64,000 nt of DNA, from IMG/VR virus record IMGVR_UViG_3300028992_000036; one strand, given 5' to 3'. Shown in pieces: positions 1-28,101 of the stretch (position 1 is the first letter of the stretch; the number at the start of each line of letters is the position of its first letter). The position numbers and the translations under genes were made by a program. This DNA is from a virus. Taxonomy: Duplodnaviria > Heunggongvirae > Uroviricota > Caudoviricetes. Below the pieces are notes generated by a model that was not told the origin of the DNA, ran no database searches, and saw only the letters and a list, made by a program, of their open reading frames with translations.

Positions 1-79
1 CGAATAAGATATCGCTTAAATGCTTTCTGGCTGTTGTTGAGTCTATTCCCCGCACGTTTGAACTGATGCGCATCGTATT

Positions 80-424
80 TCAGACCCATATATTCGCCCC
101 TACTTCAAGATGCCCAGGTCTTCCTCGTAGCCCCCAGCGGCGATGAACACTGGACACCTTTAATTTTTGACCTTCAAGGATCAGTACATCATCAAGTTGT
201 ACAGCCGCTTCTAAAGGGACAACTAACACAGCATCAAACAGCTCCAGACTCGCCTTACCACGACTACCAGAGCTATCAGCACGAACTGACGATTTCTCAT
301 TACTCTGTTCGAACTTAACCACGCCGACATTCGTCTTCCTGACGAATTGTAATTGCGCCTCACCGTAAACGTTCTTTGCGCCAAAGCGGTAGATCGCAAT
401 TTCTGTTTGCCATGAAATATTCAT
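80..424 (-). CDS. hypothetical virion-module protein (start curated to internal ATG with GAGAGAG Shine-Dalgarno; ORF-track start is TTG at 520)
   Basis: Open frame; ATG at 422-424 preceded by AGGGAGAGAGC; sits at distal end of the head/packaging gene string. Confidence 0.45.
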   Translation of the reverse strand: MNISWQTEIAIYRFGAKNVYGEAQLQFVRKTNVGVVKFEQSNEKSSVRADSSGSRGKASLELFDAVLVVPLEAAVQLDDVLILEGQKLKVSSVHRRWGLRGRPGHLEVGANIWV

Positions 425-503
425 GCTCTCTCCCTGTTGTTGTCGGTCGCTCTCATTACTGGCCAAAAAACCTTTCGACCAAAAGTAAATAATGCGACTG
501 GCG

Positions 504-1337
504 TTACGCACGGCGAACAATCATACGGTTGTTGATGTAACTGACCAGCAAGCGCCAGGTACTACGAGCCACATGCACGTTTGCAGCTTTACCGGTACGG
601 TACATGTTGGTTGTTTCACCGATGGACTCTGACAAAATGCCATCCTCTCGTGCTGCGGCTACATCATTGCCATTTGCGATCTCACACGCTTCGTTGACAA
701 CGGCAAGCATCAACGCTTCTTTGAAGTAGTCAGGGAACTCTTCAAACTTCTCCTGCGTCATCTTTTCCCAATCGACTAAATCATGCCGGTACGCTCCATC
801 TGCTTCCCACGGAATGTCATACACATTCAGCATATTTTGAGGGCGATCGTATCGGTCAAAGTCGATACGTAGAATTTTGCGGATTGAGAACGGTAAAGTT
901 TTAATTCGTCTGGTAGCCTCAATGAGACGCTTGCGCATTAAGCCTTCACCATCCGACAGCAAAGTGTCCCCATTCAGCATATCGATCGCCTGCATTTGAG
1001 CATCAGCGACAGTTGCAAACGACTGTTCTGGTATCGACAGTTCAAAACTATTCAGCAGAACATACATTTGCCGCTCTTCATGCGTCAGACCCGATGCAAC
1101 AGCCTTCACAATGACGTACCGCAGATCTCGCTCTTTCTCAGAGAGCTGGTTATATTCAGCCGACACGACAACCGGAATCGACATTTGACCGCTGGTAATT
1201 TCTAGCGGCTCGCCATCAACGAGAATAGCCCCGGTGCTGTCCTTTACTGTGTAGGTGGCAGATTCGATATCCAGCACGTTGAAGGCAAATGAAAGAGAAA
1301 CAGCTTCACCGCTACGATACGAGTCGATCTGCGCCAT
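504..1337 (-). CDS. hypothetical protein, virion module (possible head-completion/connector)
   Basis: 277-aa ORF; ATG preceded by AAGGCGGTGAG; start overlaps upstream stop (TAATG coupling); downstream of capsid genes. Confidence 0.5.
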   Translation of the reverse strand: MAQIDSYRSGEAVSLSFAFNVLDIESATYTVKDSTGAILVDGEPLEITSGQMSIPVVVSAEYNQLSEKERDLRYVIVKAVASGLTHEERQMYVLLNSFELSIPEQSFATVADAQMQAIDMLNGDTLLSDGEGLMRKRLIEATRRIKTLPFSIRKILRIDFDRYDRPQNMLNVYDIPWEADGAYRHDLVDWEKMTQEKFEEFPDYFKEALMLAVVNEACEIANGNDVAAAREDGILSESIGETTNMYRTGKAANVHVARSTWRLLVSYINNRMIVRRA

Positions 1338-1771
1338 TACTCACCGCCTTGTGCTTTCAGGATGCCGTCAATCATTTCGACAATTCCTTTCGCTTTGACA
1401 CCAACCTGATTACCAATAACTCGTAGACCGGCAATACCTTCGTTGTCTGCAATTGACTCCAGCTCTTCTCGTGTGAAAGTCTGGATCTGTTTGGCCGGTT
1501 CATCTGGTGTCCCACGTTTCATTGGCACAATGTCAGGCGCTGCTGGCTCGGTAATCAGGTCTGCTGTCAATTCACCACGATCACTGTATGCGGCAGACGG
1601 AGAAACATTTTTGCCCTCTACTGTTGACGCTCGCATTGAAGCACAAATCCTCTGCTGATCGATAAAAGGCAACTCCGCTACGGATACCCCGTTCTCGAAC
1701 TGAACGCCACACAGCATTCCCGAATAACCGGAAAATTGCGGTTCTAATAAAACAATTTTTGCTGGTTTCAT
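1337..1771 (-). CDS. hypothetical protein, virion module
   Basis: 144-aa ORF translationally coupled to the next gene; position in structural operon. Confidence 0.5.
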   Translation of the reverse strand: MKPAKIVLLEPQFSGYSGMLCGVQFENGVSVAELPFIDQQRICASMRASTVEGKNVSPSAAYSDRGELTADLITEPAAPDIVPMKRGTPDEPAKQIQTFTREELESIADNEGIAGLRVIGNQVGVKAKGIVEMIDGILKAQGGE

Positions 1772-1815
1772 AACGCTTTCTCTCCACTTGGGCGGCGAAA
1801 GCCGCCCAATATCGG

Positions 1816-2736
1816 TTATTCCTGTGCGGCAGTAACTTCTACAGTTGCTGTCGCTTTGTGGCTACCATCTTGGGTAGTAACCTCGATTGTGGCAGTACCA
1901 GCCGCAACACCAGTTACAACACCGGTTTCGCTGTCAACCGTTGCAAACTCGGTATTTTTGGATTCCCAAGTAACGGTTTTATTTGTGGCTCCTGCCGGCT
2001 CGACATTTGCTGTCAGCTGAACAGTTTTGTTTGCCTCAACGGTTGTGCTATTTGGGTCGATTTCGACGCCGGTAACAGCCACAACAGGCGCAGTTACTTC
2101 CACCGTTGCAGTTGCCTTTTTGCTGCCATCTTGGGAAACGATCTCAATCGTCGCAGTGCCAACTTCTACACCAGTAACGTTCCCGCTCTGGTCTACCGTT
2201 GCCTTATCTTCATTTTTGGAAGACCAGGTAACAGCCTTATTCGTCGCATTTGACGGCTGAACATTCGCTTTCAGACTGACTGATTTCCCTTTCTCAACAG
2301 ACGTTGATTCTGGCGTTACCGTTACGGATTGAACGGCTACCGGATTTACGGTGACTTCCACTGAAGCGGAAAGCTGGGTTTCCTGATCAGTTGCAGTAAT
2401 TTTTACTTTGCCTGGTGCTACGCCAGTTACTAATCCAGTGCCGTTAACGGTTGCAATTTGGTCATTGGCTGACTTCCAGGTGAATGAACTGGCACTCTTA
2501 CCCATACTAATACCTGCACTAAGTTGAACAGTTTTCCCAACCAAAACTGACGGTGAAGCCGGGGTTATGTTTACGGATTGGGAGAGGGGAACCGCCTGCA
2601 AACAAGCAGATAGCTGACTTTGTTGCCGCTCGGTTAAAGGTTCATCGGAGATAGAATTGGTAAATCCGGCACGGCACATATGCCCCGTAAAATCCGAAAA
2701 TGCCTCTTCCGTAATCTTCATCTTTTGTTCTGGCAT
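1816..2736 (-). CDS. Ig-like (Big_2-type) repeat protein, putative capsid decoration protein
   Basis: Three tandem ~85-aa repeats with the pattern ATVDxxGxVTGVxxGTATIxV typical of bacterial Ig-like group 2 domains; immediately downstream of major capsid gene. Confidence 0.6.
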   Translation of the reverse strand: MPEQKMKITEEAFSDFTGHMCRAGFTNSISDEPLTERQQSQLSACLQAVPLSQSVNITPASPSVLVGKTVQLSAGISMGKSASSFTWKSANDQIATVNGTGLVTGVAPGKVKITATDQETQLSASVEVTVNPVAVQSVTVTPESTSVEKGKSVSLKANVQPSNATNKAVTWSSKNEDKATVDQSGNVTGVEVGTATIEIVSQDGSKKATATVEVTAPVVAVTGVEIDPNSTTVEANKTVQLTANVEPAGATNKTVTWESKNTEFATVDSETGVVTGVAAGTATIEVTTQDGSHKATATVEVTAAQE

Positions 2737-2749
2737 TTCTCGCTCCTAC

Positions 2750-2777
2750 AAAAAGGGTGGGCGTATAGCCCACCCTT
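2750..2777 (-). terminator. stem-loop AAAGGGTGGGC-GTATA-GCCCACCCTTT after the capsid gene (possible bidirectional terminator/attenuator)
   Basis: Perfect 11-bp GC-rich inverted repeat flanked by A/T runs, between capsid stop and decoration gene start. Confidence 0.45.
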
Positions 2778-2809
2778 TAACATAGATAACTACTTATCTA
2801 CTACACTGA

Positions 2810-3685
2810 TTAAATTTTTACATTGGTCAGTGCAGCGATAGCCTTATCGTGCTTATTCGCCAGAGAGCAGTACCACTTCACACGGGTACGTACTGCGTCT
2901 TTGTTCTGTACAGTACCAATGTTTTCAACAACGATACCTGCGTTATCGCCGCCATACAGACCAGTAACGCCGTTCTCTTCTGACAGATGCAAGCAGTAGA
3001 TGCTTGCTTTGCCAGAATCAGTCGGGATGAAGTCGTTGATGATGAACGGAACGCCGTTATGACACAGCATCGGACGACCGAAGTTCTCCATCATGATTTC
3101 AGACGGACCTACGTTTACTGTACGCAGCAGCGCACGGTAAGCACGAAGGTGCTCTGAACGCATCATGATGCAGTCAGCACCAAGATCTTTCACCGCATCG
3201 ACCAGTTCGTCGAACATAGAGAAAGTCATAGATGCACCGGCGATATCGATCTTCTGATCTGCGTGCATCAGGCGTGGAATGCCGTCAAACGCTTTGTTGT
3301 TGGTGCTGGAGTCACCCAAAATCAGATTGCGACGGAACGCACGAGCCAGACCTTTAACTTTCTGACGAACCTGAATAGCCAACTGGTTATTGGTGTCGGC
3401 CATAGTGGTTGCCAGGAATTTATCAACGTCTACGTCACCAGCCAGAATACGCAGTTTCGCAACGCATTCTTCGAAGGTTGCTGCACCTTCCGGGATGGTG
3501 TCGTTAACGTCGATGAAGGTAGCCTCACTCAGCGTTTTTTCACGGTTGTACAGATATGCCTTTGAAGTAATTTTCATAAAAGGCAGGATGGCAAACAGGT
3601 CATCGCGATCGATGATGGTTTCAATCACGCCCTGTTCAAGTTCGTTGTTAGACAGCTTTTCAGCTTCTTCACGCAGTAATGGCAT
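2810..3685 (-). CDS. major capsid protein (putative)
   Basis: 291-aa ORF directly downstream of scaffold and portal genes, followed by strong hairpin; canonical order portal-scaffold-capsid. Confidence 0.6.
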   Translation of the reverse strand: MPLLREEAEKLSNNELEQGVIETIIDRDDLFAILPFMKITSKAYLYNREKTLSEATFIDVNDTIPEGAATFEECVAKLRILAGDVDVDKFLATTMADTNNQLAIQVRQKVKGLARAFRRNLILGDSSTNNKAFDGIPRLMHADQKIDIAGASMTFSMFDELVDAVKDLGADCIMMRSEHLRAYRALLRTVNVGPSEIMMENFGRPMLCHNGVPFIINDFIPTDSGKASIYCLHLSEENGVTGLYGGDNAGIVVENIGTVQNKDAVRTRVKWYCSLANKHDKAIAALTNVKI

Positions 3686-3710
3686 CTATCAATTCCCTTT
3701 GATTTAGATG

Positions 3711-4598
3711 TTACTTAAGTCCAATTTTCCCCAGACCGGAGGCCAACTTATCCATAGTCGACTTGTTCTTCGGTTGGGATATTGTGTAGGTCGATTTGGA
3801 ATGTGAGCCTACACCCTGCTTGGCTTCGCTACGCATCAATGCGTCAGCTTCCGGATCTGCCCGCACAATGCGTTCAATCGCGGATTCAAACGGCAACGGC
3901 TTACCTTCACCGTCAACCAGAACAGCTCGTTCTTTATGACCTGCCGGTTTGTCATAACCCACTACGCTACCGTCTTCACCCACTTCAAAATGAGAACCGT
4001 AGATCACGCGGGCTTTTGCCGGAGTCATCAGAACTTTGTCACGTAGGAAGAGAGAGTTACTGAAGGAAGCGCCCACGGTCATCTCGACTAATTGAGATTT
4101 CAGTGATGCGTTTTCACTTTCCAGTGCTGCATAACGTTCGTCACGCTGTGCCAGCTCTGCCTGGTGTGCTTCGATCATCTGTTTTTTAACAGCATCGAAC
4201 TCACCACGACGCTCCAGTTCAGCTTGCTCCGCCTCACGACGTGCGTTTTCTGCGGCCTGTTCAGCTTCTAAAAGCTGGCGAGCACGCGCCGGGTCGATTT
4301 CACCGTACTGAGCAAGCTGATCGGCCAATGTGCGCTCTTTCTCTTTGCGCTTCATGTTCTCTTTCAGCAGTTCAGCACCAGCTTTCTTGATTTTGCGAAG
4401 TTCGGCCAGTAACTCTTCATGAGTCATGCCAGCGTATTCGTCATCACCCTTCGGCTGCTCTTTTTGTTCACCCTGCTTGTCAGGATCTTGTGTACTCTGC
4501 TCATTATCAGCAGCTACACCGCCAGCGCCCCCACGCTCATGCGCTTCAGCAACATCCATCAGACCACGACGGGCCAAAAGCATTTGCCACAGTTTCAT
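3711..4598 (-). CDS. head scaffolding protein (putative)
   Basis: 295 aa, highly charged with long predicted coiled-coil (AELLKENMKRKEKERTLADQLAQ..., REAEQAELERRGEF...); located between portal and capsid. Confidence 0.55.
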   Translation of the reverse strand: MKLWQMLLARRGLMDVAEAHERGGAGGVAADNEQSTQDPDKQGEQKEQPKGDDEYAGMTHEELLAELRKIKKAGAELLKENMKRKEKERTLADQLAQYGEIDPARARQLLEAEQAAENARREAEQAELERRGEFDAVKKQMIEAHQAELAQRDERYAALESENASLKSQLVEMTVGASFSNSLFLRDKVLMTPAKARVIYGSHFEVGEDGSVVGYDKPAGHKERAVLVDGEGKPLPFESAIERIVRADPEADALMRSEAKQGVGSHSKSTYTISQPKNKSTMDKLASGLGKIGLK

Positions 4599-4619
4599 AA
4601 AAATTCCCTTTGTTACTTA

Positions 4620-6194
4620 TCACTCGTTCTCTTGAGTAGATGAGTCCCCATTCCCTCGGGGTTGATCTTGCCCGCTTTCTTGGGCTGCACCACGATCATA
4701 AGTAAGTACTGACTTATTTTCAAGGGTATTTAGATCATTTTTTGGCGGAAAATTCAAGAGATCTTTATCAAATTCCTTTTTCATCGCCTCAGTAATGTTC
4801 GGGAAAATCTTCTCAATAAGCATTTCCATCTGGTGACGACGTACAGAGTCCGGTGCCTGAAGTAATGACAGTTTCTCGGCAACAGAAAATTCATCTGTAA
4901 GGCCACGAATATCGAAACTTTCTGGATACGCAATTAAAGAGTGGTCTTCGTCCAGATCTACCCCCATCCATTTCGCAACCAGTAGCATGATTTGGCGTTC
5001 AGCCCTTTCCAGACGCTCTGCTTTTGTGACAAGCAAGCTATTTACACGCTGGAAGTCATACATTTTTGCGGCACCAGATGAGTTATCAATTCCCTGTGCG
5101 TTGTCCTGCTTCGTTCGCTCACCAGCGACACCAACTGAATGGTAGATTTCGTTAATCACCGTCTTAATCGTAGTGATGATCATCTGAGCTTGTTTCGGGT
5201 CTGGTGACAAATAAAACGGCTGGTTTCCACCTTCAGAATCGTAGGTGAAGACTCGCTTTGTGCCCATTTCAAGCACTTTAGTGTGGTTTTCATCACCAGG
5301 TAAAAGCGACTGTACCGGTATAGCCAACTGGCTAAATGTCTGATCCTGAATAATGGCATCAAGGTTTGACAGATAGTTTGCAACCGCACGATCAAGATAA
5401 GCGATATCATCGATCAACGATGGGCTGAAATACGGTGATTCACTTTCTCCAATACAATCAACAGGAAACACAGGAACTACGCTGAGATTATGCTCACCGC
5501 TATCCTCTAAAATAACTTTTGCCTGACGGCGACCTGCTCCACCAGCGCCCTTCTTCACTTCCTCACGGAACAGATACCACTCGTTTTGTGTCCACAGACG
5601 ATAACGTTGGTATTCCTGACCTGTAGAAGTAAAAGGATCTGCGTCATCACGAGCGACTTCCACAATTAACGCCCACAACATATTCCCGTCGTCGTCCCAT
5701 GCCACATCCAGCATTTGCTGAGGTGAAATCCAGTAGGCGTAGGCGCGAGCATCTTTCTTTTTCTCGTCAGCTACTGACTCAACATCACCACTCATCGTGC
5801 TATCGACAACAACCCATATGCGACCGTAAATAGACGACTGCAAATCAATAGCGGCCATAAATGAGTCAATAGAGGCATTCTGGCGAGTCGCACGTTTCCA
5901 GAAATTGCGGATCTGCTCTGGTGCCTCTTCGATATTTCTATGAATGTCTTCTTTAAAGAGATATTTGTTGATGAGGTTTACCACCTCACGAGTGTGGTTG
6001 AAGCGATAAGCACGCTCAACTCGCTCCTTAAACTCCTGATCTCCCTCTTTAAAGTAACGAAAGATATTGTCTGTAAACCAACCACGCCCGCCAGCGTAAG
6101 TGCTGGCGAGGAAGTCCCAATGTTCTTTTTTCTTTTCGTATTCCGGGTGGCGTCGCGCCACCAGATCCTTAATTTGTTTGTCGTTCAATTCCAT
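4620..6194 (-). CDS. portal protein (putative)
   Basis: 524-aa ORF immediately downstream of terminase large subunit; size and position typical of portal. Confidence 0.65.
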   Translation of the reverse strand: MELNDKQIKDLVARRHPEYEKKKEHWDFLASTYAGGRGWFTDNIFRYFKEGDQEFKERVERAYRFNHTREVVNLINKYLFKEDIHRNIEEAPEQIRNFWKRATRQNASIDSFMAAIDLQSSIYGRIWVVVDSTMSGDVESVADEKKKDARAYAYWISPQQMLDVAWDDDGNMLWALIVEVARDDADPFTSTGQEYQRYRLWTQNEWYLFREEVKKGAGGAGRRQAKVILEDSGEHNLSVVPVFPVDCIGESESPYFSPSLIDDIAYLDRAVANYLSNLDAIIQDQTFSQLAIPVQSLLPGDENHTKVLEMGTKRVFTYDSEGGNQPFYLSPDPKQAQMIITTIKTVINEIYHSVGVAGERTKQDNAQGIDNSSGAAKMYDFQRVNSLLVTKAERLERAERQIMLLVAKWMGVDLDEDHSLIAYPESFDIRGLTDEFSVAEKLSLLQAPDSVRRHQMEMLIEKIFPNITEAMKKEFDKDLLNFPPKNDLNTLENKSVLTYDRGAAQESGQDQPRGNGDSSTQENE

Positions 6195-6220
6195 TTGAAT
6201 AACCTTAGATAATTACCTAC

Positions 6221-7477
6221 CTATCGAGAACCACCAAGAATAACACGGTTTTTGACTGGATACCTACGATGTACTGGATAGCCCAATGCGTCTGCACTAT
6301 GCTCAATGCCACCTGTCTTATCCATATCTCGTGTTCCAGGCTTGTAGATGACTTTTTCCAGTGAATCAATCAAATGCTTGCACTTCGGATCGATATACAA
6401 CCGGATATCTCCAGATGCGGTCATCAGCATTCGGTTAACAGCATTAACACGATCCGCAATTGGCGGGTGCTTTTTCGAATAATCGACACGTAAGAATCCC
6501 TTCTCTTTGAATATGTCGACGTCAGACTCCCCGCGAGCATGTTGGCGATAAGCACCTGCCGGATCTGGAAATACCGTTATCTGTGATTTCCAGCGCCAGA
6601 AGCGTCTCTCAAGCTCATCACAAACCTCTGCCGTGTTAGAGGAAAAGAGCACCAATTCATCAATTGCCCATAGCTCACCATTTGGCTGAGGTTGCAAAAT
6701 TACTGAAGACATCGGGTCAATGTTGAAGTCCTGCCCTACCCATATAGGCAACCGAGGGTTGAACTGAAGCGGTTTTACATGCACGTTACGATCGAACGGG
6801 TAGTAAACGCGCCCGGACATGTTCTCAAAGCTCGCCAGGTACTCCTGAGCGAACGATTTCGGGTCCATATCGTTCTTAGCAGCTTCAATTTCCGCCGTAG
6901 GCACAAACGGAGAATCGGCAGTTACAAACTGCCAGCTCTTCCACTGTCCCTTTCTTTGCAGCTCTACGTTCTGGCCTATAGTCCACAGTTTGTGAAATTC
7001 CGAGAAACCTTTTGGCGTACCAATGATAAGTGCACCGCCGCGTGTCGATGAAAGAGTAGGTCGTAACACCTTGTACCAGGTGTCAGCCTTCATATCCTGA
7101 AATTCATCAAGCACTACAAAATGCAACGCTACGCCGCGCAGAGTGTCAGGCTTATCAGCACCTTTGAGGGCGATCTCCGAACCGTTCTTCAACACGATTG
7201 TCATCGTGGTGTCGTTCTTTTTCCTAACCCACTTACGAGGCAGAACTTCCTGTAGATCGTCCCACAAAATCTGGCGAGCCATCTGGTAAGTAGGAGCGAC
7301 ATACCAGACCCTTTGCTTTTTTTCCTTTGCCGCCGCACGAATAATAGTGGAGATCGACAACCGGGATTTTCCCCAGCGTCGACCAGCACAAACAACTTTA
7401 AATCGATGCGGAGACTGGAAGACTTTCATCTGTCCAGAATGCAGTTGCACAAGACTGAGCGAGGACGGGATTGCCAT
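6221..7477 (-). CDS. terminase large subunit
   Basis: Walker A VVCAGRRWGKS, Walker B LHFVVLDEFQD, C-terminal nuclease-like acidic motifs; start overlaps small-subunit stop. Confidence 0.8.
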   Translation of the reverse strand: MAIPSSLSLVQLHSGQMKVFQSPHRFKVVCAGRRWGKSRLSISTIIRAAAKEKKQRVWYVAPTYQMARQILWDDLQEVLPRKWVRKKNDTTMTIVLKNGSEIALKGADKPDTLRGVALHFVVLDEFQDMKADTWYKVLRPTLSSTRGGALIIGTPKGFSEFHKLWTIGQNVELQRKGQWKSWQFVTADSPFVPTAEIEAAKNDMDPKSFAQEYLASFENMSGRVYYPFDRNVHVKPLQFNPRLPIWVGQDFNIDPMSSVILQPQPNGELWAIDELVLFSSNTAEVCDELERRFWRWKSQITVFPDPAGAYRQHARGESDVDIFKEKGFLRVDYSKKHPPIADRVNAVNRMLMTASGDIRLYIDPKCKHLIDSLEKVIYKPGTRDMDKTGGIEHSADALGYPVHRRYPVKNRVILGGSR

Positions 7478-8109
7478 TATTCGTCCTCCCCTTCACTTCC
7501 ATCATCTGTCGCATCAAATTCGCTTAGAGCTTCTTCTTCCAACGTCTCAAGCAATTCGTCATCGATGATTTCAGGCTCGTCGTCTTCCTGACGTAATTTC
7601 GCCACCTGGGAAGGCGTAAGCTCACCAAATACCAGATTCGGAATTTCTTCCTCGTCATTTTCCGCATGATCCATGCCCAATGCTTTGGACGAAACTTCAA
7701 AGCATTTTGCAAGGGTATTACTGGCTCTCTGTAAGCTCTTGAGAGAATCCTCAATCGCCCCTAAAGGCTTACCCTCACGTTTGGCCGTAGTGACTTCGAC
7801 CATCACCATCTGCCCCAACGCATACGCCCAGCCGTCATAACGTGTACGACGTTCTTCTATCTTTTCCGCACGGGCTTTAGCGCGAAGCTCTGCGTCAGAT
7901 TTAAGAGACTCACGAACCATCTTCCCAACAGAGTCCGCGCCTTTCTCTAATCCTCGCTTTTTGAAATGTCTGGAGAGTGTTTCACGACGAATGCCGTACT
8001 CTTCCTCCAGCTTTGAGAGTGTATATTCGCCTGACGTCCATTTGGCTTCAGCTTCGGCCCACTCCGCTGGTGTCAGGCGAGTTTTTACCTCGTCTTTTTC
8101 GACCGTCAT
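7477..8109 (-). CDS. terminase small subunit (putative)
   Basis: 210 aa, N-terminal HTH-like region (RRETLSRHFKKRGL), very acidic C-terminus, immediately upstream of and coupled to terminase large subunit. Confidence 0.5.
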   Translation of the reverse strand: MTVEKDEVKTRLTPAEWAEAEAKWTSGEYTLSKLEEEYGIRRETLSRHFKKRGLEKGADSVGKMVRESLKSDAELRAKARAEKIEERRTRYDGWAYALGQMVMVEVTTAKREGKPLGAIEDSLKSLQRASNTLAKCFEVSSKALGMDHAENDEEEIPNLVFGELTPSQVAKLRQEDDEPEIIDDELLETLEEEALSEFDATDDGSEGEDE

Positions 8110-21394: not shown

Positions 21395-21594
21395 TTATCC
21401 CTCACAATTTCCAATTTTCCAGACCATCGTCTATTTCAGCGTCAGGGTGGAATTGTACCGCATCAAATCCTACATCGAGCACCTTTCGAATGTTCTTGAT
21501 GGTTAGACTGGCCCCCTGAATCTCCAGACAACCAGTATCACTTAAATAAGTGATAGTCTTAATACTAGTTTTTAGACTAGTCATTGGAGAACAG

Positions 21595-21960
21595 ATGATT
21601 GATGTCTTAGGGCCGGAGAAACGCAGACGGCGTACCACACAGGAAAAGATCGCAATTGTTCAGCAGAGCTTTGAACCGGGGATGACGGTCTCCCTCGTTG
21701 CCCGGCAACATGGTGTAGCAGCCAGCCAGTTATTTCTCTGGCGTAAGCAATACCAGGAAGGAAGTCTTACTGCTGTCGCCGCCGGAGAACAGGTTGTTCC
21801 TGCCTCTGAACTTGCTGCCGCCATGAAGCAGATTAAAGAACTCCAGCGCCTGCTCGGCAAGAAAACGATGGAAAATGAACTCCTCAAAGAAGCCGTTGAA
21901 TATGGACGGGCAAAAAAGTGGATAGCGCACGCGCCCTTATTGCCCGGGGATGGGGAGTAA
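21595..21960 (+). CDS. insC: IS2 transposase OrfA (InsC-like)
   Basis: Protein begins [56 protein letters not shown], matching recalled IS2 InsC. Confidence 0.8.
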
Positions 21961-22823
21961 GCTTAGTCAGCCGTTGTCTCCGGGTGTCGCGTGCGCAGTT
22001 GCACGTCATTCTCAGACGAACCGATGACTGGATGGATGGCCGCCGCAGTCGTCACACTGATGATACGGATGTGCTTCTCCGTATACACCATGTTATCGGA
22101 GAGCTGCCCACGTATGGTTATCGTCGGGTATGGGCGCTGCTTCGCAGACAGGCAGAACTTGATGGTATGCCTGCGATCAATGCCAAACGTGTTTACCGGA
22201 TCATGCGCCAGAATGCGCTGTTGCTTGAGCGAAAACCTGCTGTACCGCCATCGAAACGGGCACATACAGGCAGAGTGGCCGTGAAAGAAAGCAATCAGCG
22301 ATGGTGCTCTGACGGGTTCGAGTTCTGCTGTGATAACGGAGAGAGACTGCGTGTCACGTTCGCGCTGGACTGCTGTGATCGTGAGGCACTGCACTGGGCG
22401 GTGACTACCGGCGGCTTCAACAGTGAAACAGTACAGGACGTCATGCTGGGAGCGGTGGAACGCCGCTTCGGCAACGATCTTCCGTCGTCTCCAGTGGAAT
22501 GGCTGACGGATAATGGTTCATGCTACCGGGCTAATGAAACACGCCAGTTCGCCCGGATGTTGGGACTTGAACCGAAGAACACGGCGGTGCGGAGTCCGGA
22601 GAGTAACGGAATAGCAGAGAGCTTCGTGAAAACGATAAAGCGTGACTACATCAGTATCATGCCCAAACCAGACGGGTTAACGGCAGCAAAGAACCTTACA
22701 GAGGCGTTCGAGCATTATAACGAATGGCATCCGCATAGTGCGCTGGGTTATCGCTCGCCACGGGAATATCTGCGGCAGCGGGCTTGTAATGGGTTAAGTG
22801 ATAACAGATGTCTGGAAATATAG
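21918..22823 (+). CDS. insD: IS2 transposase OrfB (InsD-like, DDE catalytic domain; normally expressed as OrfAB by -1 frameshift)
   Basis: 301-aa ORF overlapping orfA in -1 frame; integrase-core-like region. Confidence 0.8.
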
Positions 22824-23024
22824 GGGCAAATCCAATGGTTTGCTATGTGACACCGTAATCACGCAGCTTTTCTTCCCTCCCCTGACTCCCCCATACTCCG
22901 TTTCTGTACCCAATTGAGTCCGAGATTGTATGGTGCTCGAAACAGATATTTGGTAGACACTCAGAGTCATGCTGTGTAACGAGGGTAGGGCTACTAACTG
23001 TCGTCTTATACAATTTGGTGAGTT

Positions 23025-23273
23025 TCAGCATTTTACCACCCCGTTCGGAAACAACTCATTCGCCGTAGTTGATATAACCTCCCAATTAACGCCGACATCA
23101 GCGTTATGGCATTGTCTGATTTTTTGCATCACCTGTACGCATTGTTCATCAGTGAGATCTGTCCTTACTTCAGCAATATCTTCTTTGTGCCACATAACCA
23201 TGAGTAAGGGTTCGTCTTCTGGATAGTTTTTCAGTTTCTCGATGATTTCTTTTGCTGTTCCAAACATCTTCAT
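23025..23273 (-). CDS. hypothetical small protein
   Basis: 82-aa ORF with AGGAGATG Shine-Dalgarno and upstream AAACAATTTGTTTTCT motif. Confidence 0.45.
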   Translation of the reverse strand: MKMFGTAKEIIEKLKNYPEDEPLLMVMWHKEDIAEVRTDLTDEQCVQVMQKIRQCHNADVGVNWEVISTTANELFPNGVVKC

Positions 23274-23426
23274 CTCCTAAACAATTTGTTTTCTTATATG
23301 ACTTATTATCTCAATCAACAAAAGGTAGAAAACAAATTGTTTTAGAGTTTGTTAAAGTCAGAAGGGGTTGTGTCTATATGAAAATGCCCGGCGTGTTGCC
23401 GGGCATTGCGAAGAGAGGTTGTTTAA

Positions 23427-25460
23427 TTACTTAACCTGGTGGCCAGGTTTAGCACCAGCATCCGGGCTTAACAGGAAGATATCTTTCCCGCCGGGGCCAG
23501 CAGCCATCACCATGCCTTCAGAGATACCGAAGCGCATTTTACGTGGTGCCAGGTTAGCCACCATAATGGTGTGACGACCAATCAGTGCCTGTGGATCTGG
23601 ATAAGCGGAACGGATGCCTGAGAAGACATTACGCTTTTCACCACCGAGATCCAGCGTCAGGCGAAGCAGTTTGTCAGAACCTTCTACAAACTCTGCGTTT
23701 TCAATCAGCGCCACGCGCAGGTCAACTTTGGCGAAGTCGTCAAAGGTGATAGTTTCCTGAATCGGGTCGTCAGCCAGTGGGCCAGTTACCGGTGCGGCTG
23801 TGGCTTTCACTTCTTCTTTGGATGCTTCCACCAGTGCTTCAACCTGCTTCATATCGATGCGGTTATACAGTGCCTTGAACGGATTCACTTTATGGCCCAG
23901 CAGCGGTTGCTGGATACCATCCCAGGTCAGTTCTGTATTCAGGAATGCTTCTGCACGTTCAGTCAGTTTCGGCAGTACCGGTTTCAGGTACGTCATCAGC
24001 ACGCGGAACAGGTTAATGCCCATAGAGCAAATCGCCTGCAGATCGGCATCGCGTCCTTCCTGCTTTGCCACCACCCACGGAGCCTGTTCATCAACATAGC
24101 GGTTAGCCAGGTCAGCCAGTGCCATGATTTCACGGATAGCTTTGCCAAATTCGCGGCTTTCCCATGCTTCGCCAATCACTTCAGCGGCATCAGTAAAGGT
24201 TTTGTACAGTTGCGGGTCAGCCAGTTCGCTTGCCAGCACGCCGTCAAAACGCTTGTTGATAAAGCCTGCATTACGGGAGGCCAGGTTAACCACTTTGTTA
24301 ACGATATCGGCATTCACACGCTGAACGAAATCTTCCAGGTTGAGATCGATATCATCAATGCGCGAAGAGAGTTTCGCAGTGTAGTAGTAACGCAGGCTGT
24401 CGGCGTCAAAATGATTCAGCCAGGTGCTGGCTTTAATAAAGGTGCCGCGAGACTTGGACATCTTCGCGCCGTTCACCGTCACATAGCCGTGAACAAACAG
24501 GTTGGTCGGCTTGCGGAAGTTGCTGCCTTCCAGCATGGCAGGCCAGAACAGGCTGTGGAAGTAAACGATATCTTTGCCGATGAAGTGGTACAGCTCGGCG
24601 GTGGAGTCTTTCTTCCAGTATTCGTCGAAGCTGGTAGTGTCGCCGCGTTTGTCGCACAGATTCTTGAAGGAACCCATGTAGCCAATCGGCGCGTCCAGCC
24701 AGACGTAGAAGTATTTGCCCGGTGCGTTCGGAATTTCAAAACCGAAGTAAGGTGCGTCACGGGAGATATCCCACTGTTGCAGGCCAGATTCAAACCACTC
24801 CTGCATTTTGTTTGCCACCTGCTCCTGCAACGCACCGCTGCGGGTCCATGCCTGCAACATTTCGCTGAAAGAAGGCAGATCAAAGAAGAAGTGTTCGGAA
24901 TCACGCATTACCGGTGTAGCGCCAGAAACCACTGATTTCGGCTCGATCAGTTCCGTCGGGCTGTATGTCGCGCCGCAGACTTCACAGTTATCGCCGTATT
25001 GATCCGGCGCTTTACATTTCGGGCATGTGCCTTTTACAAAACGGTCCGGCAGGAACATGCCTTTTTCCGGGTCGTACAGCTGAGAGATGGTGCGGTTTTT
25101 AATAAAACCGTTCTCTTTCAGGCGAGTATAGATAAGCTCGGACAACTGACGGTTCTCTTCGCTGTGCGTCGAGTGATAGTTGTCATAGCTGATGTTAAAG
25201 CCTGCGAAATCAGTCTGATGTTCCTGACTCATTTCGCCAATCATCTGTTCCGGTGTGATACCAAGCTGCTGTGCTTTCAGCATGATTGGCGTACCGTGGG
25301 CATCGTCGGCACAGATGAAATTAACCTCGTGGCCGCGCATTCGCTGGTAACGAACCCAGACATCAGCCTGGATGTGCTCCAGCATATGGCCGAGGTGGAT
25401 TGAGCCGTTAGCGTACGGCAGCGCGCACGTCACCAGAATTTTCTTCGCGACTTGGGTCAT
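23427..25460 (-). CDS. metG: methionine--tRNA ligase (start curated to [10 protein letters not shown]; ORF-track N-terminal extension rejected)
   Basis: 677 aa; essentially collinear with E. coli MetG as recalled (class I HLGH motif, KMSKS, C-terminal tRNA-binding domain); hairpin terminator at about 23385-23410. Confidence 0.95.
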
Positions 25461-25617
25461 AGTAGGCATTACTTCTTTGTAGTGAAAAGGGGCTTGATAG
25501 TAACAAAATGGCCTTATGTCTGCCATGTGATAACAGCATTTCTCATAAATGATTAAATGTCGTAGCTGGAGTACACTACAAGGCGACAATTGCGCAAATT
25601 AAAATAAAGGAGACGGG

Positions 25618-26718
25618 ATGAGCGAGTCCAAATCGCCGGATGCCCTGAGAGCAATGGTAGCCGGTACGCTGGCTAATTTTCAGCACCCAACCCTGAAACA
25701 CAACCTGACTACGCTTAAAGCGTTACACCATGTTGCGTTGATGGATGACACACTGCATGTCGAACTAATCATGCCTTTCGTGTGGAATAAGCCTTTTGAA
25801 GACCTGAAAGAGCAATGTAGTGGTGATCTGCTCCGTATCACTGGCGCAAAGGCTATTGACTGGAAGCTGTCGTACAACATTGCCACGCTTAAGCGCGTCA
25901 AAAACCAACCAGGCATTAATGGCGTTAAGAACATTATCGCCGTCAGCTCAGGCAAGGGCGGCGTGGGTAAATCCTCCACGGCGGTAAACCTGGCACTGGC
26001 GTTGGCTGCTGAAGGTGCGAAAGTTGGTATTTTGGATGCCGATATCTATGGTCCATCAATTCCAACCATGCTGGGCGCGGAAAACCAACGTCCAACCTCA
26101 CCGGACGGTACTCACATGGCACCTATCATGTCTCATGGCCTGGCAACCAACTCTATTGGTTATCTGGTCACCGACGACAATGCAATGGTGTGGCGTGGAC
26201 CGATGGCCAGCAAGGCGCTGATGCAGATGTTGCAGGAAACACTGTGGCCTGATCTGGACTATCTCGTTCTCGATATGCCACCGGGCACTGGTGATATTCA
26301 ATTGACGCTGGCGCAGAACATTCCTGTAACTGGTGCGGTTGTGGTAACTACGCCGCAAGACATCGCGCTGATCGATGCGAAGAAAGGCATTGTGATGTTC
26401 GAAAAAGTCGAAGTGCCGGTACTGGGTATCGTTGAAAACATGAGTGTGCATATTTGCAGTAACTGCGGTCATCACGAGCCAATTTTTGGCACCGGTGGCG
26501 CACAGAAACTGGCCGAGAAATACAACACGCAGTTGTTAGGCCAAATGCCACTTCATATCTCTCTTCGTGAAGATCTGGATAACGGAACACCAACCGTTAT
26601 TAGTCGTCCAGATAGTGAATTTACGGCTATTTATCGTGACCTCGCAGATCGCGTTGCTGCCCAAATGTATTGGCAAGGTGAAGTAATACCTGGCGAAATC
26701 GCATTCCGCGCAGTGTGA
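25618..26718 (+). CDS. mrp: Fe-S cluster carrier ATPase Mrp/ApbC
   Basis: P-loop [11 protein letters not shown], Mrp signature and CxxC motif; near-identical to E. coli Mrp as recalled; divergent from metG as in the E. coli chromosome. Confidence 0.9.
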
Positions 26719-27016
26719 TAAAAAGGTGGTGCTTTTGCCGTTACGCACCACCCCGTCAGTAGCTGAACAGGAGGGACAGCTGATAGAAACAGAAGCCACT
26801 GGAGCACCTCAAAAACACCATCATACACTAAATCAGTAAGTTGGCAGCATCACCGAGCGCCAGCGGCGAACATATGAGCTTCGGAAATACTAGACATTCT
26901 TAACTCCGTTGTTTTCTAGTTGTGGTTATTTTCACAAATAAGAAAAGATAGAAAACAATTTATTTAAGGCCACAACTTATGGCCTTTATTTATTCATGCC
27001 GAAGGATTTGTAGCGT

Positions 27017-27397
27017 CTAATTGCCGGATAAAATGGGGTGAGGTGCTTGCCAGTAGGCTCCACCGTTCCATGTGAACCCCATGCGAATAAGAGTGTTTAT
27101 TGCGGCTTTGGTAGACTCCGATTCGACACTGGCTTTACGAAACTCTTGAACCTCTTTCGCCAACTTGTATGTAATTGTGCAGGGGACGATTGCAGCCCAG
27201 CCTTTCTCATGACTGTTAATGACCATCTGGATGTGACCATCCAGAATAGGTTGATTAGGCATGTTATTGAAAATGTCTGCCTGTTTTTGAATGTGAAGAA
27301 AAAGCCTTGCCAGCGCCATTTGCTCACTACGAGACAAGGGATTATCAAGAGGGCTTTTTGCAAAAGCTGCTATACGCTGTGCATCAATGCCAAACAT
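27017..27397 (-). CDS. hypothetical protein
   Basis: 126-aa ORF, start overlaps upstream stop. Confidence 0.45.
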   Translation of the reverse strand: MFGIDAQRIAAFAKSPLDNPLSRSEQMALARLFLHIQKQADIFNNMPNQPILDGHIQMVINSHEKGWAAIVPCTITYKLAKEVQEFRKASVESESTKAAINTLIRMGFTWNGGAYWQAPHPILSGN

Positions 27398-28101
27398 CAG
27401 CGCACCTCACCATCTTTATGGCTGGAGTTAACTTCCGTCATTAAATGTCTGACGTAATCGACAAGAGAGCCGCCTGGTGGAATCTGGCATTCCTCAACTA
27501 ACTGGAAGTAGATATCCGCTGCATTACGTGTATTGCTACCCGCGCATATTCTTTCTTCCCGAAGTGCATGAAGCTCGTTGATCAAACGGTCACACTCTCC
27601 GTTACGCTGATCCACAACGGCCTCAAGCTCTGCGACGCGTTCACCTGGCGTCTTACCTTCTTTGCGTTGGATGGTAACGACGAAATCGCCAATTGCAGGG
27701 ACGTTGTAATCCAGCTCAAGGTAGTTTTTGGCACCGCTGCGGACGAACTCACCCGCGAACATGGTGGCGAACATCGCAGAGGCCACTTCTCCGTTGAAAA
27801 GTGACTCCAGATCTAACGGAGTCCCGGCAGCAAGAGCCTCTTTTGCTGTATCCATTGCATCCATGAACCGATCAAACTCACTAGCGCGCTTTTCCAGGTC
27901 TTTCCATTGCTCGCTCCAACGTTTGGCAACGAAGTCTATGAATGTTTTCGCGGATTCATCAAAATTCCCCTCAAACTTAACGATGCCTTTATCAATAATG
28001 ATCTGGCCTACCGCATCCTCTGCATAACCTTTCAATGTAAACTTGAAAGGAAAATCGGAATGGCCTGTGACGTTAAAATGCTCTAACTGGAGGTTGCTCA
28101 T
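27397..28101 (-). CDS. hypothetical protein
   Basis: 234-aa ORF in operon with downstream gene. Confidence 0.45.
   Translation of the reverse strand: MSNLQLEHFNVTGHSDFPFKFTLKGYAEDAVGQIIIDKGIVKFEGNFDESAKTFIDFVAKRWSEQWKDLEKRASEFDRFMDAMDTAKEALAAGTPLDLESLFNGEVASAMFATMFAGEFVRSGAKNYLELDYNVPAIGDFVVTIQRKEGKTPGERVAELEAVVDQRNGECDRLINELHALREERICAGSNTRNAADIYFQLVEECQIPPGGSLVDYVRHLMTEVNSSHKDGEVR

What the first reader, a model, noticed from the sequence alone, without database searches (positions are those of the whole stretch)
23274..27016. Housekeeping genes metG and mrp/apbC embedded in phage-plasmid DNA and flanked by direct repeats
A 3.5-kb segment encodes MetG and Mrp that look essentially identical to the E. 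coli chromosomal proteins, in their native divergent arrangement. Both sides are phage-plasmid backbone. Both junctions carry related copies of the backbone intergenic repeat: left about 23279-23344 (...TTGTTTTCT...AAAGGTAGAAAACAAATTGTTTT) and right about 26905-26965 (...TTGTTTTCT...AAAGATAGAAAACAATTTATTT). This is consistent with capture of chromosomal DNA by recombination at repeated promoter elements, or with a mis-assembly. An essential aminoacyl-tRNA synthetase on a mobile element would be unusual and could create plasmid addiction or altered translation.
Basis: partly seen in the sequence, partly recalled or inferred. Interest (0 to 1): 0.55.

Follow-up and report, generated by a model that had tools for sequence, protein, structure and literature searches.

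The report
Known phage-plasmid copy of metG and apbC
A virus-like plasmid of E. coli really does carry a second, intact copy of the essential methionyl-tRNA synthetase gene and its neighbour apbC. This is a long-established and already published feature of this plasmid family, not a recent capture or an assembly error.

Summary
metG (23427-25460, -) and apbC/mrp (25618-26718, +) lie in an SSU5-like phage-plasmid, and a 60-nt direct repeat sits on each side.

- **Not a mis-assembly.** The same 3.9 kb, junctions included, is 100% identical in three independent complete plasmids. The module occurs in about 200 PLSDB plasmids and 4 phage genomes.
- **Not a recent capture.** No E. coli chromosome exceeds 94.4% nucleotide identity in metG. 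apbC is only about 82% identical (dS about 1.6).
- **Both genes are functional.** They are under very strong purifying selection.
- **No addiction by relocation.** Every host keeps its chromosomal copy.
- **The repeats are backbone operators.** They belong to a dispersed promoter/operator family (AAACAA-N-TTGTTT, 14 sites).
- **The right repeat's position is secondary.** It abuts the segment only because a deletion ending in an IS1 remnant removed humD in this lineage.

Phage-plasmid-borne metG is already published (Tam et al. 2024, pWPMR2) as promoting antimicrobial survival.

Possibly new: the module is mosaic, with an old apbC and an Escherichia-like, recombining metG. It also exchanges alleles with the chromosome in both directions.

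The parts
21504..22834 (+). Complete IS2 (1331 bp) inserted into a small backbone gene, with the 5-bp target duplication ATGGT at 21499-21503 and 22835-22839. It is not part of the metG module and is specific to this lineage.
   Evidence: Read directly from the sequence. The 301-aa ORF at 21918-22823 reads as IS2 orfB; this was recognised from memory of the IS2 sequence.
23025..23273 (-). Small backbone gene (DUF1380, phrog_10258) driven by the left promoter/operator element. Relatives carry different genes at this position.
   Evidence: Relatives have a DUF5983 or another small gene here.
23274..23347 (-). Left promoter/operator element. Two 13-bp palindromic operators (23279-23291 and 23330-23342, AAACAA-N-TTGTTT) flank a sigma-70-like promoter, TTGTTG-17-TATAAG, that reads leftwards. 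The promoter was read by eye. This is the left 'direct repeat'.
   Evidence: (I2: 21-nt arms, 90% complementary). The pair of sites is kept next to the metG terminator in essentially all metG-bearing relatives fetched.
23380..23404 (-). Intrinsic terminator of metG: stem GCCCGGC / GCCGGGC followed by a T-run on the - strand. It is not homologous to the E. coli chromosomal metG terminator.
23427..25460 (-). metG, methionine--tRNA ligase, 677 aa, intact. Substitutions relative to K-12: S112T S151A S275T V276T S319T V442I R538K A554T.
25461..25617 (.). Divergent intergenic promoter region, 157 nt against 131 nt in K-12. Only about 55 nt next to metG resemble E. coli. The rest cannot be aligned.
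25618..26718 (+). apbC/mrp, Fe-S cluster carrier ATPase, 366 aa, intact. It is 81.8% identical in nucleotides to K-12, with GC3 of 52% against 62%.
26725..26854 (-). IS1 remnant of about 130 bp. Its outer inverted-repeat end is at 26854. Its interior is fused to the apbC terminator at a GGYGGTGC microhomology. It marks a deletion that removed humD.
   Evidence: (99-100% identity to IS1 of phage P1)
26855..26897 (-). First 14 codons (MSSISEAHMFAAGA...) of a small backbone gene truncated by the IS1 insertion.
   Evidence: Read from the sequence and the alignment to pNT1F31
26909..26968 (-). Right promoter/operator element, the right 'direct repeat'. The distal operator-like site is at 26953-26965 (1 mismatch). 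The proximal site is a half-site at 26909-26918.
   Evidence: The distal half is shared with pNT1F31 and pBL12EC-1.
26966..26986 (.). Hairpin AAGGCCACAACTTATGGCCTT between the right element and the upstream backbone gene at 27017-27397. It is probably that gene's terminator.
27017..28101 (-). Two conserved backbone genes (phrog_10451 and phrog_8364). These form the conserved right flank.

Best explanation
The segment is the conserved auxiliary metG-apbC cargo module of the Escherichia/Shigella branch of SSU5-like phage-plasmids (pWPMR2/pSLy3-like).

Origin. It is an old acquisition of the divergent metG-apbC gene pair from an enterobacterial chromosome. It sits in the variable early/accessory region of the phage-plasmid. 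That region is an array of small gene cassettes, each preceded by a backbone promoter/operator element.

Expression and dosage. The module has its own terminators and a divergent intergenic promoter region with no backbone operator. It gives the host a second, plasmid-dosage copy of an intact, nearly wild-type MetRS and of ApbC, in addition to the chromosomal copies.

Effect. According to the literature, expression of the phage-plasmid metG creates a bacterial sub-population that survives antimicrobials better. This step is taken from the literature and was not tested here.

Flanking repeats. They are two members of the backbone operator family, not footprints of the capture. In this lineage a deletion ending in an IS1 remnant removed humD and brought the right-hand copy next to apbC.

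Exchange with the chromosome. Because the module is homologous to the host locus, it recombines with it. metG is mosaic and Escherichia-like. apbC has stayed a separate, AT-shifted lineage.
For: Backbone. The portal protein is 92.9% identical to SSU5. Phage and DNA-metabolism genes are present. The 100%-identical record pM160133_p3 is annotated with ParB genes and a plasmid replicon type.

Distribution. 202 PLSDB plasmids hold at least 80% of the module (Escherichia 191, Shigella 6), as do 4 phage genomes. There are 220-224 plasmid copies among 5426 complete E. coli genomes, and all those genomes keep a chromosomal copy. The exact ApbC protein is listed in 12,090 blocks of the assembly collection.

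Age.
- The best chromosomal identity for metG is 94.4%.
- apbC is 81.8% identical to K-12. Its dS is 1.56, against 0.28 for metG.
- apbC GC3 is 52% against 62% in K-12, with an excess of GC-to-AT changes.
- The phage-plasmid apbC copies form a clade with 100% bootstrap support on a long stem.

Selection. The ApbC protein is identical in 7 of 8 phage-plasmid copies despite 9-35 synonymous differences. MetG dN/dS is 0.005-0.05. The HIGH and KMSKS motifs are intact.

Repeats.
- There are 14 operator sites where 0.5 are expected. They lie just downstream of -10-like boxes, in front of minus-strand genes.
- The 16-mer is present in every SSU5-like locus fetched, including pHCM2, and in none of 88 other loci.
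- humD and a terminator follow apbC in most relatives.
- pBL12EC-1 has a DUF4145 gene at the same site instead of metG-apbC.

Function, from the literature. PMC12452169 cites Tam et al. 2024. bioRxiv 10.1101/2025.09.12.675607 describes pWPMR2-like phage-plasmids. PMC11004401 links MetRS to persistence.

Recombination.
- The PHI test gives P<0.0005 for metG.
- A 344-nt tract of the S. sonnei plasmid metG is identical to K-12.
- Only 5 fixed differences separate 14 phage-plasmid copies from K-12/E1V33.
Against: - I could not read the primary functional paper (Tam et al.). It is known here only through papers that cite it.
- This window's MetG carries none of the classical persister changes: deletion of ETIT 569-572, G263S/S264F, or a C-terminal frameshift. 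Any effect of this allele would have to come from dosage, expression or heterodimer formation, and that is inference.
- Nothing here shows when the module is expressed, in the plasmid state or during lytic growth.
- The role of apbC is unexplained, although it is the more strictly conserved of the two genes.
- The donor lineage was not identified. Chromosomes of E. albertii, E. fergusonii and E. marmotae were not among the 80 loci returned.
Confidence: 0.8

Rival explanations
1. One reading: host chromosomal DNA was captured recently by recombination between the two repeated promoter elements that now flank the segment.
For: The repeats are real and flank the segment in the window. The same elements are the breakpoints at which neighbouring cassettes differ between relatives.
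Against: The module is 5.6-18% diverged from every E. coli chromosome. Homology to the chromosome stops at the metG stop codon and at the end of apbC, and no repeat exists at the chromosomal locus. The right repeat is adjacent only in a derived minority lineage, after an IS1-associated deletion. In most relatives a terminator and humD lie at that junction.
Confidence: 0.04
2. Assembly artefact: a chromosomal metG-mrp contig was joined by mistake into plasmid sequence.
For: Some draft assemblies do contain contigs that join chromosome and phage-plasmid inside metG. One such join runs across a 1240-N scaffold gap.
Against: The 3.9 kb, both junctions included, is 100% identical in three independent complete plasmids. 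The module is present in 4 phage genome records. Its sequence is distinct from every chromosomal allele.
Confidence: 0.01
3. The module mainly benefits the phage. MetRS and ApbC would act as auxiliary metabolic genes that support translation and Fe-S enzyme maturation during lytic replication, alongside the element's own nucleotide-metabolism genes. On this view the tolerance phenotype is a side effect.
For: The backbone carries many metabolic genes: ribonucleotide reductase, thymidylate synthase, DHFR and RNase H. ApbC is under even stricter purifying selection than MetG. An E. marmotae relative carries a further translation-related housekeeping gene, der, next to apbC.
Against: The intergenic region contains no phage operator. 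SSU5, pHCM2 and the Klebsiella relatives replicate without the module. A 62-kb E. albertii plasmid derivative keeps it. There are no expression data. This explanation is compatible with the best explanation.
Confidence: 0.2
4. The module is kept because it is a portable stretch of homology. It would let the phage-plasmid integrate into the chromosome at metG by a single crossover, or exchange alleles with the chromosome.
For: Hybrid contigs L094, L097 and L102 run from chromosomal molR and the chromosomal metG terminator, through a hybrid metG, into phage-plasmid apbC, humD and backbone. Two complete chromosomes carry phage-plasmid-type metG and patches of phage-plasmid-type apbC at the native locus. 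There is also a conversion tract from the chromosome into the S. sonnei plasmid.
Against: No complete E. coli genome among 5426 shows the integration junction. The hybrid contigs could be chimeras formed at identical tracts of 90-130 nt. Homology alone does not explain dN/dS near zero for both proteins. Exchange may simply be a by-product of carrying the genes.
Confidence: 0.12
5. Plasmid addiction: the element holds the host's only functional copy of an essential gene.
For: None found.
Against: All 5426 complete genomes have a chromosomal metG, and 5425 of them at 80% coverage or more. The same holds for the whole metG-apbC segment.
Confidence: 0.02

Closest known systems
pWPMR2 and pWPMR2-like SSU5-group phage-plasmids of Shigella sonnei and E. 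coli that carry metG (Tam et al. 2024, medRxiv 10.1101/2024.10.27.24316207; clade K in bioRxiv 10.1101/2025.09.12.675607)
   Same: The backbone is SSU5-like. The S. sonnei plasmid NZ_CP045933.1 carries the same metG-apbC module at 98.1% nucleotide identity and encodes an identical ApbC protein. It has the same left promoter/operator element and the same metG terminator.
   Different: The window lacks humD and has an IS1 remnant in its place. Its left neighbours are a DUF1380 gene and an IS2. Its MetG differs from the S. sonnei plasmid protein at 10 residue positions (8 nonsynonymous nucleotide differences); for example it lacks G134C, A410T and D565E. I did not verify that NZ_CP045933.1 is pWPMR2 itself.
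Salmonella phage SSU5 and S. Typhi pHCM2, the type members of the phage-plasmid group
   Same: The structural and replication backbone is shared: portal 92.9% aa identity, right-flank genes about 84% nucleotide identity, and the same operator 16-mer.
   Different: They have no metG-apbC module.
Plasmid-borne second aminoacyl-tRNA synthetase genes that confer inhibitor resistance, such as mupA/ileS2 (from general knowledge)
   Same: An additional aaRS copy sits on a mobile element alongside the chromosomal gene.
   Different: Those enzymes are strongly divergent and insensitive to the inhibitor. Here MetG is 98.8% identical to the host enzyme, and no MetRS inhibitor is implicated.
Chromosomal metG persister/tolerance alleles (PMC11004401 and the work it cites)
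   Same: The same enzyme is linked to antibiotic persistence.
   Different: Those alleles are partial loss-of-function changes in the single chromosomal copy. The window's allele has none of them and is an extra copy.
Phage morons and mosaic cassette arrays in temperate phages (general concept)
   Same: A self-contained cargo unit with its own promoter and terminator lies between backbone transcription units. A relative has a different gene at the same site (DUF4145 in pBL12EC-1).
   Different: The cargo is a pair of core housekeeping genes that stay homologous to, and recombine with, the host chromosome.

Membership tests
SSU5-group phage-plasmid | SSU5-like virion and packaging genes | tested here: met
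   The portal protein is 92.9% aa identical to SSU5. Terminase, portal and scaffold match PHROGs.
SSU5-group phage-plasmid | Plasmid replication and partition functions; maintained as an extrachromosomal replicon | tested here: met
   The 100%-identical record is a circular 113-kb plasmid with ParB-family genes and replicon type rep_cluster_488. Relatives are typed IncFIB or rep_cluster_488. This rests on the matching record, because the window's own source is unknown.
metG-bearing (pWPMR2-like) phage-plasmids | An intact second metG in addition to the chromosomal copy | tested here: met
   The window metG is a full-length equivalog hit. All genomes keep the chromosomal copy.
metG-bearing (pWPMR2-like) phage-plasmids | Increased antimicrobial survival or tolerance when the plasmid metG is expressed | not testable with these tools
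   Known only from the literature.
Class I methionyl-tRNA synthetase | HIGH and KMSKS signature motifs, the zinc-knuckle cysteines and the C-terminal tRNA-binding domain | tested here: met
   The alignment to K-12 shows HLGH at 21-24, KMSKS at 333-337 and CPKC...CEVC. The TIGR00399 C-terminal domain is hit.
ApbC/Mrp Fe-S cluster carrier | Deviant Walker A motif (GKGGVGKS) and the CxxC motif; full-length equivalog score | tested here: met
   GKGGVGKS and CSNCG are conserved in the alignment. NF008669 scores 759 bits against a cut-off of 348.
Composite transposon or IS-mediated capture | Two flanking IS copies bracketing the cargo, with a target-site duplication | tested here: not met
   There is only one 130-bp IS1 remnant, on the right, and it is absent from most relatives. 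The IS2 lies 590 bp to the left, is lineage-specific and has its own target duplication.
Site-specific integration cassette (att sites or integron-like) | Flanking repeats that are recombination sites, with an integrase | tested here: not met
   The repeats belong to a 14-site operator family placed in front of genes. No integrase is adjacent. The right repeat is not at the junction in most relatives.

The most novel reading that the evidence does not exclude
The metG-apbC module acts as a two-way recombination bridge between SSU5-like phage-plasmids and the Escherichia chromosome. apbC is an old, AT-shifted resident lineage. metG is repeatedly overwritten by host alleles. In the other direction, phage-plasmid alleles are written into the chromosome, as seen in two complete genomes. 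The element may occasionally integrate at metG by a single crossover. If so, the phage-plasmid is a vehicle that moves metG alleles, including tolerance alleles, between strains and species. I could not establish whether the published work already describes this.
Probability: 0.45. Interest if true: 0.55.

Novelty: already known. Interest (0 to 1): 0.3.

Why it matters
An extra MetRS gene on a transmissible phage-plasmid has been linked to antimicrobial survival in epidemic Shigella sonnei. The same module is present in about 4% of complete E. coli genomes. It is therefore clinically relevant cargo that routine resistance screens do not flag.

For the genome scan, the case shows that a housekeeping gene on a mobile element can be old, selected cargo rather than an artefact. 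It also shows that nucleotide divergence, not protein divergence, is what distinguishes the two.

If the evidence for allele exchange with the chromosome is confirmed, it would add a route by which metG variants spread.

Tried and rejected
- **Donor search.** The single genome-contig scan kept only the 80 best of 590 relatives. E. coli proper, E. albertii, E. fergusonii and E. marmotae were not among them, so the donor lineage could not be pinned down. The best apbC match was 82% (C. werkmanii and E. coli).
- **Protein searches.** I considered protein-level searches for the donor. I rejected them because clustering at 90% identity would merge all enterobacterial MetG and ApbC.
- **Empty site.** A query made of the two joined flanks found no record with the flanks adjacent. 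The left flank is variable. My first version of that query accidentally included the IS2.
- **Other genera.** The Klebsiella and Salmonella 'plasmid' hits at about 83% are chromosomal fragments labelled as plasmids, with native chromosomal neighbours. They are not independent captures.
- **Reciprocal junction.** Contig L104, which carries the reciprocal chromosome/phage-plasmid junction, has a 1240-N scaffold gap inside metG, so it is not usable as evidence.
- **Integrated copy.** CP043541.1, a 5.57-Mb chromosome that carries the phage-plasmid region, could not be retrieved to map an integration site.
- **Literature.** The primary paper (Tam et al.) is not held. One broad literature search was uninformative.
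- **Promoter and tRNA scans.** The promoter/terminator consensus scan found no more sites than in shuffled sequence and no promoter in the metG-apbC intergenic region. There are no tRNA genes in the window.
- In the intergenic alignment the coordinates for the E1V33 and C. werkmanii rows were wrong. Those two rows are ignored.
Full report
**What is there**

The window is phage-plasmid DNA of the SSU5 group. Its portal protein is 92.9% identical to that of Salmonella phage SSU5 and 99.6-99.8% identical to Escherichia phages Cyrano and CMS-2020a. PHROG searches find terminase, portal, scaffold, ribonucleotide reductase, an SbcC-like nuclease and a DNA methyltransferase.

The region 23200-27100 is 100% identical to three complete plasmids of about 113-114 kb. 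They come from human urine, swine caecum and chicken faeces. One of them, pM160133_p3, is annotated with ParB-family genes, thymidylate synthase, DHFR and RNase H.

Inside this DNA lie two genes:
- metG at 23427-25460 (-), 677 aa, scoring 1019.8 bits on the NCBIfam equivalog (cut-off 587).
- apbC/mrp at 25618-26718 (+), 366 aa, scoring 759 bits (cut-off 348).

They are arranged divergently, as in E. coli K-12. The 720-aa ORF listed is only the mechanical extension of metG to an upstream TTG.

**The observation**

MetG is 669/677 identical to K-12 MetG and its HIGH and KMSKS motifs are intact. ApbC is 346/365 identical to the K-12 protein.

The direct repeat is real: 23286-23345 against 26909-26968, 60 nt, 73% identical. 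Both copies fit TTGTTTTCT-N32-AGAAAACAA, giving 2 hits where shuffled sequence gives none.

- A 130-bp remnant of an IS1 end at 26725-26854, between apbC and the right repeat. It is 99-100% identical to the IS1 of phage P1.
- A complete IS2 at 21504-22834 with a 5-bp target duplication, ATGGT.

**Not a mis-assembly and not a recent capture**

The module is widespread:
- It occurs in 202 PLSDB plasmids at 80% coverage or more (Escherichia 191, Shigella 6). Nearly all are 100-125 kb and non-mobilizable.
- It occurs in four phage genome records.
- Among 5426 complete E. coli genomes there are 220-224 plasmid copies, and every genome also has a chromosomal copy.
- The exact ApbC protein is listed in 12,090 blocks of the public assembly collection, mostly on contigs of 50-200 kb.

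The module is also distinct from every host chromosome:
- No E. coli chromosome is more than 94.4% identical to the window's metG.
- Over the whole segment, chromosomes reach only about 90%.
- Homology to the chromosome covers the metG coding sequence plus about 55 nt upstream of it, and the apbC coding sequence.
- Both terminators and most of the intergenic region cannot be aligned.

**The two genes have different histories**

- metG is 94.3% identical to K-12, with dS of 0.28. That equals the distance between E. coli and Escherichia sp. E1V33.
- apbC is 81.8% identical, with dS of 1.56. That is at or beyond the E. coli-Salmonella level.
- The apbC/metG dS ratio is 5.6. For real species pairs it is 1.5-2.1.
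- apbC GC3 has fallen to 52%, against 62% in E. coli. This moves it towards the 46% GC of the backbone, with an excess of GC-to-AT changes. metG GC3 is 60.6%.

The trees agree. The phage-plasmid apbC copies form a clade with 100% bootstrap support on a long stem, sister to Escherichia (87%). The phage-plasmid metG copies fall inside an Escherichia clade (100%) but are not monophyletic (34%).

metG shows strong signs of recombination:
- The PHI test gives P<0.0005 for metG and is not significant for apbC.
- Only 5 fixed differences separate 14 phage-plasmid copies from K-12/E1V33.
- The S. sonnei plasmid metG contains a 344-nt tract identical to K-12 (P<0.0002).

My reading is that the gene pair was acquired long ago and that metG has since been repeatedly overwritten by host alleles. 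A later replacement of metG alone is not excluded.

**Selection**

ApbC is identical at protein level in 7 of 8 phage-plasmid copies, despite 9-35 synonymous differences. MetG dN/dS among phage-plasmid copies is 0.005-0.05. Both genes are therefore kept functional. This argues against neutral hitch-hiking.

**The repeats**

The flanking repeats are two members of a dispersed backbone family. The palindrome AAACAA-N-TTGTTT occurs 14 times in the window (at most 1 mismatch), against 0.5 expected. Almost all sites are in intergenic DNA between 8 and 31 kb. They lie a few bases downstream of -10-like boxes and 10-25 nt upstream of the start codons of minus-strand genes. The 16-mer AGAAAACAANTTGTTT is found in every SSU5-like locus fetched, including pHCM2 of S. 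Typhi, and in none of 88 other loci. These look like operator sites of early promoters. The protein that binds them is unknown.

The left element has two operators flanking TTGTTG-17-TATAAG, a promoter I read by eye. It drives the DUF1380 gene and sits next to the metG terminator in essentially all metG-bearing relatives fetched.

The right element is a different matter. In most relatives apbC is followed by a bidirectional terminator. Next comes a convergent humD gene, a UmuD-like S24 peptidase that matches the NCBIfam HumD equivalog and has a LexA box upstream. Alignment to pNT1F31 shows what happened in the window. The apbC terminator stem GGTGGTGC is fused to the interior of IS1 at a short microhomology, and humD is gone. 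Homology resumes only in the distal half of the right element.

Only six of the listed plasmids (H1-H6) match in one piece across this junction. The repeat's position next to apbC is therefore secondary and cannot be the footprint of the capture.

**A cargo site in a cassette array**

Plasmid pBL12EC-1 has the same left element and humD, but a DUF4145 gene in place of metG-apbC. An E. marmotae plasmid has der after apbC. E. albertii 62-kb plasmids have deacetylase and GNAT genes there. The gene to the left of the left element also varies: DUF1380, DUF5983 or others. In each case homology breaks exactly at the operator elements. The elements are therefore plausible crossover points for cassette exchange.

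**How it works**

Shown here: an intact, nearly wild-type MetRS and an intact ApbC sit on a multi-kilobase cassette. The cassette has its own terminators and a distinct intergenic promoter region with no backbone operator. Both genes are under strong purifying selection, and they are always additional to the chromosomal copies.

From the literature: phage-plasmid-borne metG in S. sonnei is associated with multidrug-resistant lineages. Its expression creates a sub-population that survives antimicrobials (Tam et al. 2024, as described in PMC12452169). pWPMR2-like phage-plasmids also occur in E. coli CC131, CC23 and CC73 (bioRxiv 10.1101/2025.09.12.675607). Independently, metG mutations and metG knock-down raise persistence (PMC11004401).

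Inferred: the window's MetG lacks the classical persister changes. Any effect of this allele would therefore come from dosage, altered regulation or mixed dimers. The role of ApbC is unexplained.

**Exchange with the chromosome (possibly new)**

Three contigs of 371-574 kb (L094, L097, L102) run in this order:
1. chromosomal molR/DUF4132 and the chromosomal metG terminator;
2. a metG whose 3' part is chromosomal-type and whose 5' part is phage-plasmid-type;
3. the phage-plasmid intergenic region, apbC, humD and backbone genes.

None of the three contains Ns. This is what a single crossover in metG would produce. However, the crossovers lie at the longest identical tracts, so assembly chimeras are not excluded. 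The one reciprocal junction found spans a scaffold gap. No complete E. coli genome shows the junction.

Firmer evidence comes from two complete chromosomes, KW21 and BHUCD01. At the native locus, with chromosomal flanks and a mostly chromosomal intergenic region, each carries a phage-plasmid-type metG. It has 112-113 differences from K-12 but only 17-20 from the nearest phage-plasmid alleles. Each also has phage-plasmid-type patches inside apbC. Phage-plasmid-type apbC is a deep, AT-shifted lineage otherwise seen only on these elements. These patches therefore indicate transfer from the phage-plasmid into the chromosome.

**Verdict**

The finding is real, but it is a known feature of a known family. 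Mis-assembly, recent capture, capture at the flanking repeats and addiction are not supported. The mosaic history and the two-way allele exchange are the only parts that may go beyond what is published, and I could not check them against the primary paper.

Noticed in passing
window 8150, 8175, 17294, 18058, 18961, 19446, 20628, 23279, 23330, 26953, 29861, 30575, 31304, 41523 (13-nt sites): A dispersed family of palindromic sites, AAACAA-N-TTGTTT, often extended to AGAAAACAANTTGTTT. They lie just downstream of -10-like boxes, in front of minus-strand early or accessory genes. There are 14 sites where 0.5 are expected. The motif is conserved in all SSU5-like loci fetched, including pHCM2, and looks like the operator of an unidentified repressor.
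   Followed up: partly
window 21504-22834: A complete IS2 (1331 bp) with a 5-bp target duplication (ATGGT) interrupts a small backbone gene. It is specific to this lineage.
   Followed up: yes
window 26720-26897: An IS1 end remnant is fused to the apbC terminator at a GGYGGTGC microhomology. humD, a UmuD-like gene with an SOS box that is present in most relatives, has been deleted. The first 14 codons of another small gene are left stranded.
   Followed up: yes
L114 (NZ_CM183442.1, strain BHUCD01) 3803-7077; L115 (NZ_CP117672.1, strain KW21) 3803-7077: Two complete E. coli chromosomes carry phage-plasmid-type metG, and patches of phage-plasmid-type apbC, at the native chromosomal locus. This implies gene conversion from the phage-plasmid into the chromosome.
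   Followed up: partly
L094, L097, L102 (positions 1-7528 of each); L104 5120-7847: Large draft contigs join chromosomal molR to phage-plasmid apbC and humD through a hybrid metG. This could be integration by a single crossover or an assembly chimera. The reciprocal junction in L104 contains a 1240-N gap.
   Followed up: partly
L086 8551-10023 (E. marmotae plasmid NZ_CP146383.1): A second essential housekeeping gene, der (ribosome-biogenesis GTPase), lies directly after apbC in place of humD on a 166-kb relative.
   Followed up: no
L091 6323-7066 (pBL12EC-1, NZ_CP079776.1): A relative has a DUF4145 gene instead of metG-apbC between the same left element and humD. This marks the position as a cargo hotspot.
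   Followed up: partly
L088 (E. albertii p3RM15116, 62 kb) and sister plasmids H10-H16: A group of 62-kb E. albertii plasmids keeps the metG-apbC module next to GNAT and polysaccharide deacetylase genes and toxin-antitoxin pairs. They have the same replicon type as the window's plasmid and may be reduced derivatives of the phage-plasmid.
   Followed up: no
L095 (VCZV01000001.1, 4.89 Mb), L099 (CP043541.1, 5.57 Mb), L100 (2.7 Mb contig): The exact ApbC protein also occurs on chromosome-sized contigs. In L095 and L099 the neighbours are phage-plasmid genes on both sides, and L095 has the window's own gene configuration. In L100 lambda-like tail genes lie to the left and there is no metG. These could be integrated or rearranged copies, or mis-joins.
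   Followed up: no
L084 and L085, apbC nt 511-590: In phage Cyrano and p88COLEC-2, apbC contains an 80-nt tract identical to K-12 within an otherwise 17%-diverged gene (P<0.0005). This is a short conversion patch from the host chromosome.
   Followed up: partly
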